From an uncultured Methanosarcinales archaeon (GTDB lineage: Archaea > Nanobdellota > Nanobdellia > Woesearchaeales > 21-14-0-10-32-9): a stretch of 54,079 nucleotides of DNA. The notes beneath the pieces are model-generated. The model was not told the origin of the DNA. It ran no database searches and saw only the letters and a program-made list of their open reading frames with translations. How positions within the stretch are numbered: position 1 is the first letter of the stretch; each line of letters begins with the position of its first letter. Location: assembly GCA_964501945.1 (NCBI GenBank), contig CAZCTY010000003.1:1-54079 (forward strand), read 5' to 3'. The position numbers were made by a program, and so were the translations under genes. Below are positions 30,811-32,399 of the stretch, piece after piece.

Positions 30811-31263
30811 TTAGTTGTGAGCATATTTTCCTAAAATATTTTGATTTTCTTTCTCGAAGCTAGCCAATTCTTCTGATTGTTTTTTAAGACTTTTTTGATA
30901 AGAATTGTATAAACCATTAAATAAGCCAAATATTTCTCCAGGAGAATAATTAGAGATATCTTGAGATGATTTGCCTTCCCCCCTAAATTTAGGATGTTTT
31001 TTCATCAAAAAAGCCCTTTTTTGATCAGAGTCAGCATTAAGATATGTTTTTGCTTCATTGAGCCAAGCACTTGCAGAATCAAATTCAACTCTCAAATCAA
31101 CGTAATCACCTATAATTTCCTCCTCTAATTTTGATATGTTTTGCTCTCTTTGTTCTTCAGGGTGTTTTTCTTTTTTAGGCCCTCTTGGCGAATATTTTTT
31201 TTCATCAATAAATCTATCATAATGCGCTGGTTTTCTTTGAGGAAATAAACTTAATTGATTCAT
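30811..31263 (-). CDS. Orphan hypothetical protein starting with QLSLF
   Basis: 150-aa ORF with a TATA-like element upstream. No family recognised. Base composition is discordant with its neighbours. Confidence 0.6.
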   Translation of the reverse strand: MNQLSLFPQRKPAHYDRFIDEKKYSPRGPKKEKHPEEQREQNISKLEEEIIGDYVDLRVEFDSASAWLNEAKTYLNADSDQKRAFLMKKHPKFRGEGKSSQDISNYSPGEIFGLFNGLYNSYQKSLKKQSEELASFEKENQNILGKYAHN

Positions 31264-31349
31264 AATAAATATATAAGGAAAACAAATATATAAATGTTTT
31301 GTTTTTTGTTACCAAAAAGTAATTAAATTTCTTTTTTTGTTCCAAATCA

Positions 31350-31359
31350 TTTATAAATA
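31350..31359 (+). promoter_or_regulatory. TATA box of the SRP RNA gene
   Basis: TTTATAAATA lies about 20-28 nt upstream of the predicted 5' end. Confidence 0.6.
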
Positions 31360-31377
31360 CAAAAACATTACCAACAA

Positions 31378-31645
31378 GTGCTAGCCCGGGGCGTTAGCCG
31401 TGCCTTGTAACCCAAAACCGGCTTTATGTGGGGGGCGAAGCCGAAGAAGAGGTCTGCTTTTGTGAGGCAGTCTTCGAAGAACTGTCGATATCCTGTCCCT
31501 CTTGATCGTTGCTTAAGGGAAACTGGTCAGGCCAGGAATGGAGCAGCCATAACCTTGAACATCGGTGTTTGAGGGGTTGCAGGAAGGAGGAACTTCGAAG
31601 AACATACTGCTTTGCGAGAGTTAGATCCACTCTTCGGCGCGCATT
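31378..31645 (+). ncRNA. ffs: Archaeal signal recognition particle RNA (about 268 nt, helix 6 absent)
   Basis: Alu domain GGGGCGTTAGCCGTGCCTTGTAACCC with the UGUAA motif. Helix 8 TGGTCAGGCCA-GGAA-TGGAGCAGCCA. Helix 5 GCTTTTGTGAGGCAGT pairs over 16 bp with ACTGCTTTGCGAGAGT. The 5' and 3' ends pair. Confidence 0.93.
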
Positions 31646-31661
31646 TCTATATAATGCGCAG

Positions 31662-32399
31662 TCATTTAAGCAAATCAAGCCTAAACTTAGTTAACGCGTC
31701 ATGATATTCTGATTTAAAAAAAGATAACTCCTCAAAACCACAACCAAAAAAAACACTTCTCTCACAAGATAAATTACGCGCATCACACTCAACGTTAGGA
31801 TTGAAATAATTTAAGCTGAAATTATTAGAATAACTAACCATAGGATTTAACGAATCACCATACCTAATAGATAAATCATCAAAAAAAGAATCATAATCCC
31901 CCCTAAAAGGAACATTTTTTAAAAAAGAGATATAAAAACCCCAAAACGAATCAGAGAGCCTCAATATATCAAATGAAGACACTGATTTTTTATAAACCTC
32001 ACCGAGAGAAAACTCATTAAAAACCAACTCTCGAATTCCTTTCTCGTGCTGAATTTTTAAAAATTCATTAAAACCATCAAAAAAAGAATTATAAAAATCA
32101 AAAACCAAACCAGAAAACTCACAAATCCTCTCACCGAGTTCTTTTTTATGAACAGAATCATTAAACACATCAACATCCAAATAAGACATGAGAATATTAG
32201 CCCTCTCAAAAAACTTCAAATGATGAACAGAATACAACTCAAAAAAAGGCTCTAAATTAGGATACAAACCACAAAGACCCTCCCTGACATTACTTAAAGC
32301 TTCAACTTCTAAAGAAATTAAATCATCTAAAACAAAACACGTAGATACATCCGATAAAGATTTTTTAAAAGGCTTAGCCGAAGGTAATACGAGATTCAT
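31662..32399 (-). CDS. Orphan hypothetical protein (F/S/D/L-rich, probably helical)
   Basis: 245-aa ORF filling the space between SRP RNA and rpoN. No motif recognised. Confidence 0.55.
   Translation of the reverse strand: MNLVLPSAKPFKKSLSDVSTCFVLDDLISLEVEALSNVREGLCGLYPNLEPFFELYSVHHLKFFERANILMSYLDVDVFNDSVHKKELGERICEFSGLVFDFYNSFFDGFNEFLKIQHEKGIRELVFNEFSLGEVYKKSVSSFDILRLSDSFWGFYISFLKNVPFRGDYDSFFDDLSIRYGDSLNPMVSYSNNFSLNYFNPNVECDARNLSCERSVFFGCGFEELSFFKSEYHDALTKFRLDLLK

What the first reader, a model, noticed from the sequence alone, without database searches (positions are those of the whole stretch)
31378..31645. SRP RNA with an Alu domain but no helix 6
Seen: helix 5 runs TCCCTC (31496-31501)/GAGGGG (31571-31576), then ATCGTTG/CATCGGT. 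It continues directly into the helix 8 base TTAAGG (31513-31518)/CCTTGA (31553-31558), the asymmetric loop and the GGAA tetraloop (31535-31538). No nucleotides remain for helix 6, and the RNA is about 268 nt versus roughly 300 nt for typical archaeal 7S RNA. Known: the helix 6 GNAR loop with helix 8 forms the SRP19 site. Large Bacillus-type SRP RNAs have Alu but lack helix 6 and SRP19. Inference: an SRP19-independent archaeal SRP. I cannot tell whether this is already reported for this lineage.
Basis: partly seen in the sequence, partly recalled or inferred. Interest (0 to 1): 0.62.

Follow-up and report, generated by a model that had tools for sequence, protein, structure and literature searches.

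The report
Archaeal SRP RNA lacking helix 6
This is the expressed signal-recognition-particle RNA of a Woesearchaeota-type (DPANN) archaeon that, like at least 20 relatives, has cleanly lost helix 6, the docking site of protein SRP19, a protein published surveys also fail to find in this lineage, so these archaea probably run a two-part SRP (SRP54 plus RNA) built like that of Bacillus.

Summary
Window 31374-31648 (+) matches Rfam Archaea_SRP (151.9 bits, cutoff 96.5, E 3.8e-35). The 40 model positions for helix 6 are deleted with 0 nt inserted, so helix 5 runs straight into helix 8.

This is a lineage trait, not an artefact. Twenty further DPANN MAGs (labelled Woesearchaeota, Pacearchaeota, Nanoarchaeia, one Aenigmatarchaeota) carry 261-275 nt SRP RNAs with the same deletion. 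Three Poseidoniales/Thalassarchaeum RNAs caught by the same search pattern keep helix 6 (308-311 nt). An independent RNAalifold fold gives the same continuous stem with strong covariation (90.6% paired versus 37-48% when slid; 62 of 79 pairs compensatory). Two salt-lake metatranscriptomes hold identical contigs spanning the junction.

No SRP19 gene is in the window or 405 kb of related loci, which is a low-power test. Huang et al. 2021 found PF01922 (verified here as SRP19) absent from 152 Woesearchaeota genomes. Their supplements list SRP54 but never SRP19.

I found no paper linking the two losses. The best reading is an SRP19-independent archaeal SRP, architecturally convergent with Bacillus-type large SRP RNA. 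Verdict: a new variant of a known kind, of moderate interest.

The parts
31374..31648 (+). SRP (7S) RNA gene, 275 nt, 52% G+C in a roughly 33% G+C genome
   Evidence: Rfam RF01857 at 151.9 bits, E 3.8e-35, full model. MFE fold z = -3.8. Composition.
31350..31359 (+). Archaeal TATA-box-like element TTTATAAATA, about 20-28 nt upstream of the predicted 5' end
   Evidence: Read directly from the sequence. Similar TTTATAAA/TTTAAAAA boxes sit at the same distance upstream of nearly all 21 DPANN homologues. Promoter function is inferred, not shown.
31374..31382 (+). Helix 1, 5' strand; it pairs with 31640-31648
   Evidence: Rfam structure line [[[ ]]] with some mismatches. The MFE fold pairs GUGC 31378-31381 with GCGC 31639-31642.
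31384..31436 (+). Alu (small) domain: helix 2 (31384-31387/31433-31436), helix 3 (31388-31393/31401-31406), UGUAA (UGUNR) motif 31406-31410, and helix 4 (31411-31414/31429-31432)
   Evidence: CM alignment. RNAalifold with covariation: helices 2, 3 and 4 are 96-99% paired, with compensatory changes in 11 of 14 pairs.
31440..31512 (+). Helix 5, 5' strand, including the conserved GUCGA (31484-31488) and UGUCC (31494-31498) internal-loop motifs
31502..31512 (+). Junction where helix 6 should branch off. All of it is paired into distal helix 5 (AUCGUUG 31505-31511 with CAUCGGU 31560-31566), so 0 nt are available for helix 6
   Evidence: Model *[40]* versus sequence *[0]*. Alignment helix 10 (columns 137-150/185-198) has compensatory changes in 12 of 13 pairs. 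A block of about 42 columns is present only in the controls.
31513..31558 (+). Helix 8 (SRP54 M-domain site): base 31513-18/31553-58; asymmetric loop GAAAC 31519-23 / UAA 31550-52; stem 31524-27/31546-49; symmetric loop CAGG 31528-31 / AGCA 31542-45; stem 31532-34/31539-41; GGAA loop 31535-38
   Evidence: The GAA and UAA loop residues lie outside the search pattern and are still invariant in 20 of 20 sequences.
31559..31638 (+). Helix 5, 3' strand
31387..31580 (+). Stretch covered by 100%-identical metatranscriptome contigs (X3 31387-31536; X4 31430-31580). They cross the helix 5/8 junction with no insertion or deletion

Best explanation
Window 31374-31648 (+) is the functional SRP RNA gene of a soda-lake Woesearchaeota-type DPANN archaeon. 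It descends from the archaeal 7S RNA. It keeps helix 1, the Alu domain (helices 2-4 with UGUAA), the long helix 5 with its conserved internal loops, and a canonical helix 8 (symmetric and asymmetric loops plus the GGAA tetraloop). Helix 6 has been excised exactly, so helices 5 and 8 form one continuous rod, as in bacterial SRP RNAs. The likely mechanism (inferred) is as follows. SRP54 binds the helix 8 loops through its M domain without any SRP19 clamp. The GGAA tetraloop and the helix 5 loops serve FtsY docking and GTPase activation, as in bacteria. The Alu domain reaches the ribosomal elongation-factor site. The particle would then be a two-component RNP (SRP54 plus RNA). SRP19 and its RNA docking site appear to have been lost together during the genome reduction of this lineage. 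Shown here: the identity of the RNA, the absence of helix 6, conservation of the trait in at least 21 genomes, and transcription. Taken from the literature: absence of SRP19 and presence of SRP54 and FtsY in Woesearchaeota. Inferred: SRP54 binding and function without SRP19.
For: (1) The covariance model deletes helix 6 (40 positions replaced by 0 nt) at 151.9 bits. (2) The same deletion occurs in the syntenic RNAs of L005 and L006, in 17 further DPANN loci of 269-275 nt and in Pacearchaeota L100 (261 nt, 40 positions replaced by 1 nt). (3) Poseidoniales/Thalassarchaeum controls recovered by the same pattern keep an 18-bp helix 6 with a GGAA loop (308-311 nt). (4) De novo RNAalifold gives the same continuous stem: 62 of 79 pairs are compensatory, 90.6% of cells are paired versus 37-48% when slid, the covariation score is 0.72 versus 0.13-0.20, and 0 of 500 shuffles reach the observed values. 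(5) The spacing from the GYCC motif to the helix 8 loop is fixed at 32-33 nt in 20 of 21 DPANN RNAs, versus 74-75 nt in the two Poseidoniales controls. (6) Identical RNA contigs from two metatranscriptomes cross the junction, with no coverage of the upstream flank. In run X3 only this RNA and the tRNA-Leu region are covered across 9 kb. (7) PF01922 is SRP19. It was absent from all 152 Woesearchaeota genomes examined (PMC8421398). Supplements totalling 9.7 million characters list SRP54/K03106 but never SRP19/K03105/PF01922. ffh and ftsY are present in most Woesearchaeota MAGs (PMC11606122). (8) My SRP19 HMM finds SRP19 in 118 of 120 positive-control loci and nothing (best E 0.099) in the window plus 36 archaeal loci totalling 404,838 bp. 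(9) Established knowledge: archaeal SRP54 binds 7S RNA without SRP19, and an SRP19 deletion is tolerated in Haloferax volcanii (PMC2905702 and PMC6098224).
Against: The whole genome of this organism was not available, so SRP19 absence is shown only for 54 kb here and is otherwise taken from the literature. Those surveys used HMM detection on MAGs, which a very divergent SRP19 could escape. Seventeen of the 20 aligned homologues, plus Pacearchaeota L100, were found with a helix 8 pattern derived from helix-6-less RNAs, so the counts say nothing about DPANN lineages with other helix 8 sequences. The metatranscriptome evidence consists of unstranded, low-depth Logan contigs. No biochemical data exist for any of these RNAs.
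Confidence: 0.85

Rival explanations
1. SRP19 is still encoded but has diverged beyond HMM detection, or has been replaced by a non-homologous protein. It would bind helix 8 and/or SRP54 directly, so the particle would remain three-component despite the loss of helix 6.
For: DPANN proteins evolve fast, and SRP19 is short and poorly conserved (mean column identity 15% in the 150-sequence alignment A3). Absence calls rest on HMMs run on MAGs. Two ORFs with no Pfam match flank the RNA gene.
Against: SRP19's main RNA contact is the helix 6 tetraloop, which is gone. PF01922 was missed in 152 of 152 genomes while SRP54 was found. The two flanking unknown ORFs have no homologue near the SRP RNA in 28 related loci, so synteny offers no candidate partner. 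My broad HMM finds nothing in 405 kb.
Confidence: 0.08
2. The gene is a Bacillus/Clostridium-type large bacterial SRP RNA acquired by horizontal transfer. It would then never have had a helix 6.
For: The architecture is identical (Alu domain, helix 5, helix 8, no helix 6) and the size is similar. Clostridia large SRP RNAs share the exact helix 8 motif, including the GAAC...UAAG loops. DPANN genomes carry many bacterial genes, for example the SLT transglycosylase in this window.
Against: In the Rfam clan competition the archaeal model wins at 151.9 bits despite a 40-position deletion, whereas real Clostridia RNAs score 190-195 bits on Bacteria_large_SRP. The helix 3/4 region follows the archaeal consensus (UGUAACCC.AA..CG.CUUU.UG.GGGG). 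The gene has an archaeal TATA box. It lies within about 1-4 kb of the archaeal S9-RpoN ribosomal protein cluster in 6 loci.
Confidence: 0.03
3. The missing helix 6 is an assembly artefact, or a decaying pseudogene in this one MAG.
For: The window comes from a metagenome assembly.
Against: The same precise deletion occurs in at least 21 independent assemblies from different studies and habitats. Compensatory covariation shows purifying selection on the structure. Identical transcript contigs exist.
Confidence: 0.01
4. Helix 6 is supplied in trans by a separate small RNA, or by RNA rearrangement (as in the permuted, circularised Thermoproteus SRP RNA).
For: There are precedents for split or permuted archaeal RNAs (PMC4731332, listed).
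Against: The RNA is collinear and complete from helix 1 to helix 1, and the junction is a closed, covarying stem with no free nucleotides. The transcript contigs show no joints. No second SRP-like hit exists in the window.
Confidence: 0.01

Closest known systems
Canonical archaeal 7S SRP RNA (Rfam RF01857; e.g. Methanocaldococcus jannaschii, PDB 1LNG/2V3C)
   Same: It scores well above the family threshold. It has helix 1, the Alu domain with UGUNR, helix 5 with conserved internal loops, and helix 8 with symmetric and asymmetric loops and a GGAA tetraloop. It has an archaeal promoter and genomic context.
   Different: Helix 6 (about 40 nt, GNAR loop) is entirely absent, so there is no three-way junction, no helix 6/helix 8 adenosine clamp and no SRP19 site. 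The RNA is 261-275 nt rather than about 300-317 nt. The partner protein SRP19 is reported missing from the lineage.
Bacillus/Clostridium-type large bacterial SRP RNA (Rfam RF01854; B. subtilis scRNA, about 271 nt)
   Same: The helix complement is the same (Alu domain, helix 5, helix 8, no helix 6), the size is similar and no SRP19 is involved. The helix 8 loop sequences are nearly identical to those of Lachnospiraceae RNAs.
   Different: The sequence and Alu-domain details fit the archaeal model better. The host is an archaeon. Bacterial Alu domains bind HBsu, and no archaeal Alu-binding protein is known (from my own background knowledge). The resemblance is best read as convergence by loss.
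Bacterial 4.5S (small) SRP RNA (Rfam RF00169)
   Same: A continuous helix 5/8 hairpin that binds Ffh/SRP54 alone. The S domain of the Pacearchaeota homologues is called Bacteria_small_SRP at the gathering threshold.
   Different: 4.5S RNA has no Alu domain. The DPANN RNAs keep a complete one.
Haloferax volcanii SRP19 deletion mutant (Yurist et al. 2007, as cited in PMC2905702 and PMC6098224)
   Same: It shows that an archaeal SRP can work without SRP19.
   Different: That is a laboratory deletion in an organism that keeps helix 6. Here both partners are lost naturally across a large lineage.

Membership tests
Archaeal SRP RNA (RF01857 / SRPDB archaeal type) | Covariance-model score at or above the curated gathering threshold | tested here: met
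   151.9 bits versus 96.5, E 3.8e-35, full-length alignment.
Archaeal SRP RNA (RF01857 / SRPDB archaeal type) | Alu domain: helices 2, 3 and 4 with a UGUNR motif, closed by helix 1 | tested here: met
   UGUAA at 31406-31410. Helices 2-4 are 96-99% paired with compensatory changes. Helix 1 is only partly paired in this sequence.
Archaeal SRP RNA (RF01857 / SRPDB archaeal type) | Helix 8 with symmetric and asymmetric loops and a GRRA tetraloop (SRP54 M-domain site) | tested here: met
   31513-31558, with GGAA at 31535-31538.
Archaeal SRP RNA (RF01857 / SRPDB archaeal type) | Helix 6 with a GNAR tetraloop, forming a three-way junction with helices 5 and 8 | tested here: not met
   40 model positions are deleted and 0 nt inserted. 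The block of about 42 columns is present only in the controls. The junction stem covaries.
Archaeal SRP RNA (RF01857 / SRPDB archaeal type) | Co-occurrence with an SRP19 gene in the genome | not testable with these tools
   The whole genome is unavailable. No SRP19 is found in the window or in 405 kb of related loci. The literature reports PF01922 absent from 152 Woesearchaeota genomes.
Bacterial large SRP RNA (RF01854) | Alu domain plus a continuous helix 5/8, with no helix 6 | tested here: met
   The architecture is identical.
Bacterial large SRP RNA (RF01854) | Best-scoring model within the SRP clan, and a bacterial host | tested here: not met
   The clan competition keeps Archaea_SRP for the window and for all DPANN loci, while Clostridia RNAs go to RF01854 at 190-195 bits. 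The neighbouring genes are archaeal: RpoN, RpoD, L18e and an S13-S4-S11 cluster.
Bacterial small (4.5S) SRP RNA (RF00169) | Consists of the helix 5/8 hairpin only, with no Alu domain | tested here: not met
   A complete Alu domain is present. The RF00169 calls on Pacearchaeota loci are the S domain of a 261-nt archaeal-type RNA that scores 96.4 bits, just under the 96.5 cutoff.

The most novel reading that the evidence does not exclude
The helix-6-less, SRP19-less particle may not be a late reductive quirk. It may be the ancestral archaeal (or pre-archaeal) SRP architecture, the same as in Bacillus-type bacteria, retained in deep-branching DPANN lineages. Helix 6 and SRP19 would then be a later invention of the remaining Archaea plus eukaryotes. 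The evidence here excludes neither direction, because only presence and absence were mapped, on a sample biased towards one helix 8 type.
Probability: 0.1. Interest if true: 0.8.

Novelty: new variant of a known kind. Interest (0 to 1): 0.55.

Why it matters
Textbooks and the 2010 SRP review state that every archaeal SRP consists of 7S RNA, SRP19 and SRP54, and that SRP19 always coexists with helix 6 (PMC2905702). Here a very species-rich archaeal radiation (Woesearchaeota, Pacearchaeota and allies) lacks the RNA half of that partnership. Published marker-gene surveys, which did not comment on it, show that the protein half is missing too.

- **A natural experiment.** This co-loss supports the idea that SRP19 is an accessory factor in Archaea.
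- **A minimal model.** It offers a minimal archaeal SRP for biochemistry and structure work, consisting of SRP54 and an RNA that still bears an Alu domain.
- **Annotation and quality control.** PF01922 should not be used as a completeness marker for these lineages. Some of these RNAs fall just under the Rfam threshold and get called 'bacterial small SRP'.
- **Evolution.** It gives a character for mapping SRP evolution across DPANN.

Tried and rejected
- **Exact 41-mer search.** I searched the genome collection for an exact 41-mer of helix 8 and got no hit.
- **Locating the window's contig.** I looked up its S9 protein among public contigs; it is not on record.
- **SRP19 homologues from M. jannaschii.** The search for homologous proteins returned only Methanococcales. 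With a 150-sequence profile it returned 63 hits, few of them named and none labelled DPANN, so it was not decisive.
- **Picking a DPANN SRP19 by AT-rich composition.** The candidates turned out to be Thermoplasmata, Methanobacteriaceae, Thermoproteota and Methanococcus.
- **My own back-translated SRP19 motif scan.** It gave 118 of 120 true SRP19 loci, none of the 80 listed titles labelled DPANN. The sample is skewed to lineages that keep the motif, so I use it only as an HMM positive control and as weak support.
- **A 4.5S-like minimal RNA in Pacearchaeota.** I rejected this after a permissive scan showed a 261-nt archaeal-type RNA with an Alu domain.
- **Flanking unknown ORFs (150 aa and 245 aa) as replacement partners.** I rejected this because neither is conserved next to the RNA in 28 related loci.
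- **Supplements of the Undinarchaeota paper and the text of the DPANN protein-family paper.** Neither mentions SRP19.
- **Sigma-70 promoter and terminator scan.** It was uninformative, as expected for an archaeon.

Full report
**1. Observation**

TCCCTC 31496-31501 pairs with GAGGGG 31571-31576. ATCGTTG 31505-31511 pairs with CATCGGT 31560-31566, with one U.U mismatch. TTAAGG 31513-31518 pairs with CCTTGA 31553-31558. The GGAA loop is at 31535-31538.

An Rfam scan of the whole 54-kb window at gathering thresholds returns one hit: Archaea_SRP (RF01857) at 31374-31648 (+), 151.9 bits against a threshold of 96.5, E 3.8e-35, aligned over model positions 1-317. The block of 40 model positions that constitutes helix 6 is deleted and replaced by 0 nucleotides. 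The gene is therefore 275 nt, against a 317-position model. The single-sequence MFE fold gives the same continuous helix 5 to helix 8 rod (-110.6 kcal/mol, z = -3.8).

**2. Organism and context**

The window has about 33% G+C and the RNA 52%. The RNA gene sits between a tRNase-Z-like gene and a typical archaeal cluster, all on the minus strand: RpoN, S9, L13, L18e, tRNA-Leu, RpoD, S11, S4, S13.

The closest S9 relatives in the GTDB species collection are MAGs labelled Woesearchaeota, Nanoarchaeota or 'archaeon', at 59-67% identity. The stretch is held at 95% of sampled words by a soda-lake metagenome run. A TTTATAAATA box at 31350-31359 lies 20-28 nt upstream of the predicted 5' end. Similar boxes precede nearly all homologues. 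No SRP19, SRP54 or FtsY gene lies in the window.

**3. A lineage trait, not an artefact**

Two relatives found through S9 synteny (L005, L006) carry 273- and 269-nt SRP RNAs in which 38 helix 6 positions are replaced by 3 nt.

A degenerate helix 8 pattern then recovered 24 archaeal-labelled loci. Seventeen complete Archaea_SRP hits of 270-275 nt came from MAGs labelled Woesearchaeota, Nanoarchaeia, 'archaeon' or one Aenigmatarchaeota, plus several 'binchicken' MAGs with an implausible Methanosarcinales label. An eighteenth, L086, is cut off at its 5' end and was left out of the alignment.

Two Pacearchaeota loci were called only Bacteria_small_SRP at the gathering threshold. A permissive scan of one of them, L100, showed a 261-nt archaeal-type RNA with an Alu domain at 96.4 bits (threshold 96.5). 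It too has helix 6 deleted, with 40 positions replaced by 1 nt.

The same pattern also caught three Poseidoniales/Thalassarchaeum RNAs of 308-311 nt. In a joint MAFFT alignment these three carry a block of about 42 columns that all 20 DPANN sequences lack. In L089 that block aligns to the model's helix 6 as an 18-bp hairpin with a GGAA (GNAR) loop. The spacing from the conserved GYCC motif of helix 5 to the helix 8 symmetric loop is 32-33 nt in 20 of 21 DPANN RNAs, against 74-75 nt in the two Poseidoniales controls.

One caveat applies. Seventeen of the 20 aligned homologues, and L100, were found with a pattern derived from helix-6-less RNAs. The count therefore describes the clade that has this helix 8 type, not DPANN as a whole.

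**4. Structure by covariation**

RNAalifold on the 20 DPANN sequences (alignment A1), with no Rfam model behind it, predicts helices 2, 3, 4, 5 and 8, with one unpaired column on each side at the helix 5/8 junction. 62 of 79 pairs show compensatory double changes.

Counting pairs with controls gives 90.6% standard pairs against 37-48% when the 3' partners are slid by 1-3 columns. The covariation score is 0.72 against 0.13-0.20, and 0 of 500 shuffles reach the observed values. The junction helix (columns 137-150/185-198) has compensatory changes in 12 of 13 pairs. In the window itself even the junction columns pair (U31513-A31558), leaving a single C.A mismatch (31512/31559).

The asymmetric-loop residues GAA (5' side) and UAA (3' side) lie outside the search pattern, and they are invariant in 20 of 20 sequences.

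**5. Expression**

Two salt-lake metatranscriptome runs hold 100%-identical contigs covering 31387-31536 and 31430-31580. These cross the junction with no inserted or missing letters and no joints. Nothing covers the upstream flank 31150-31386. Across 9 kb, run X3 covers only this RNA and the tRNA-Leu region, which is the pattern expected of stable structural RNAs. The contigs are unstranded and shallow, so this shows presence, not abundance or exact ends. A second pair of contigs (31605-31761) runs past the predicted 3' end. I leave that unexplained.

**6. SRP19**

PF01922 is SRP19, which I verified with the M. jannaschii protein of PDB 1LNG. Huang et al. 2021 removed PF01922.12 from the CheckM marker set because it was absent across 152 Woesearchaeota genomes (PMC8421398). 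Their 54 supplementary files (9.7 million characters) contain SRP54/K03106 but no SRP19, K03105 or PF01922.

A second paper reports PF01922 consistently absent from Parvarchaeales and Jingweiarchaeales (PMC10134863). Woesearchaeota MAGs do encode ffh, ftsY and secY (PMC11606122).

For my own test I collected 150 diverse SRP19 representatives with an exhaustive HMMER search (1571 representatives at E <= 1e-3) and built an HMM from them. It detects SRP19 in 118 of 120 positive-control loci at 80 bits or more. It finds nothing (best E 0.099) in six-frame translations of the window plus 36 archaeal loci, 404,838 bp in all. That sample is too small to prove absence from any one genome. The claim therefore rests mainly on the published surveys.

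**7. Mechanism**

Established knowledge is that SRP19 clamps the tetraloops of helices 6 and 8. In eukaryotes this is needed to open helix 8 for SRP54. Archaeal SRP54 binds 7S RNA without SRP19, and an SRP19 deletion in Haloferax volcanii has no translocation phenotype (PMC2905702 and PMC6098224).

From the preserved helix 8 loops, the GGAA tetraloop, the helix 5 internal loops and the Alu domain, I infer that these archaea use a two-component SRP. SRP54 would bind helix 8 directly, and the RNA would act as in Bacillus-type bacteria. SRP19 and its docking helix would have been lost together during genome reduction. Binding and activity remain untested.

**8. Rivals**

- **Horizontal acquisition of a bacterial large SRP RNA.** Architecture and helix 8 sequence are strikingly similar to Clostridia RNAs. 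However, the archaeal model wins the Rfam clan competition despite the deletion, while real Clostridia RNAs score 190-195 bits on RF01854. The helix 3/4 region follows the archaeal consensus, and the promoter and gene neighbourhood are archaeal.
- **A hidden, divergent or replacement SRP19.** This cannot be excluded, but synteny offers no candidate. The two flanking ORFs with no Pfam match have no homologues near the RNA in 28 related loci.
- **Assembly artefact, pseudogene, or helix 6 supplied in trans.** These are contradicted by recurrence, covariation and collinear transcripts.

**9. Novelty**

The 2010 review states that SRP19 occurs in all archaeal subgroups and coexists with helix 6. 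Full-text searches returned nothing that describes a helix-6-less archaeal SRP RNA or discusses SRP19 loss in these lineages. The searches combined SRP19 with DPANN, Nanoarchaeota and Nanoarchaeum, SRP RNA with DPANN, signal recognition particle with Woesearchaeota, and the PF01922/arCOG/COG identifiers. The SRP19 absence appears only as a marker accession number in Methods sections. Subscription-only literature and curated alignments (Rfam full, SRPDB) could not be searched.

I rate this a new variant of a known kind. It is a clean, well-supported structural variant with a plausible and testable functional consequence. It is moderately surprising, given that SRP19 is already known to be dispensable in Archaea.

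Noticed in passing
L100:5130-5390 (+); L147:4434-4531 (-): Pacearchaeota SRP RNAs score 96.4 bits on Archaea_SRP, just under the 96.5 cutoff. At gathering thresholds only their S domain is reported, as 'Bacteria_small_SRP' (50.3 and 48.1 bits). Automated annotation will therefore mislabel or miss these genes.
   Followed up: partly
window:31605-31761: Metatranscriptome contigs of X3 and X4 run about 110 nt past the predicted SRP RNA 3' end (31648), into the 3' end of the convergent ORF 31662-32399 (-). This could be read-through, a longer precursor, or the other gene's 3' UTR. The contigs are unstranded.
   Followed up: no
window:31639-31659: An inverted repeat, GCGCAT (31639-31644) ... ATGCGC (31654-31659), straddles the RNA 3' end. 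It may be a processing or termination hairpin, or it may compete with helix 1.
   Followed up: no
window:20574-21548 (-): A 324-aa protein with a bacterial-type lytic murein transglycosylase domain (SLT_2, E 1.8e-37) in an archaeal contig. It may be a weapon or interface against bacterial hosts or neighbours.
   Followed up: no
window:38934-47463 (-): A cluster of two T2SSF-like membrane proteins and a T2SSE ATPase (type IV pilus/archaellum-like), followed by unannotated ORFs and a 921-aa protein with a weak VWA domain. It may be a surface-attachment apparatus.
   Followed up: no
L054, L084, L137, L152, L156, L168, L003, L007: Several 'binchicken' MAGs titled 'uncultured Methanosarcinales archaeon' carry Woesearchaeota-like S9 genes and/or helix-6-less DPANN-type SRP RNAs. 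The taxonomic label is probably a placeholder or an error.
   Followed up: partly
L121:1041-1315 (-): A MAG labelled Aenigmatarchaeota has the highest-scoring helix-6-less SRP RNA (160.1 bits, 275 nt). If the label is right, the loss extends beyond the Woese/Pace (Nanoarchaeota) group.
   Followed up: no
L057, L083, L138 and about 90 other Clostridia loci (L053-L172): Large SRP RNAs of Lachnospiraceae and other Clostridia share the exact helix 8 string CAGRYCAGGAATGRAGCAGC and the GAAC/UAAG loop flanks with the DPANN RNAs. This is convergence or deep conservation of the SRP54/Ffh site in RNAs that lack helix 6.
   Followed up: partly
L092:1933-2043; L096:957-1083: tRNA hits of 111 and 127 nt in Woesearchaeota/Nanoarchaeia loci, probably intron-containing tRNA genes.
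   Followed up: no
L003:3904-4245; L004:235-530: Archaeal RNase P RNA genes lie a few kb from the S9 cluster in two DPANN relatives. They have large insertions relative to the Rfam model and a deletion of 34-37 model positions.
   Followed up: no
window:31941-32087: One X4 RNA contig replaces 145 nt inside the hypothetical 245-aa gene with 40 other letters. This is likely a strain variant of a fast-evolving ORF.
   Followed up: no
literature (PMC10266531; PMC10134863): A nanohaloarchaeal genome paper lists Ffh, FtsY and SRP RNA but no SRP19. Parvarchaeales and Jingweiarchaeales are reported to lack PF01922. SRP19 loss may therefore be widespread in DPANN, and their SRP RNAs should be checked for helix 6.
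   Followed up: no
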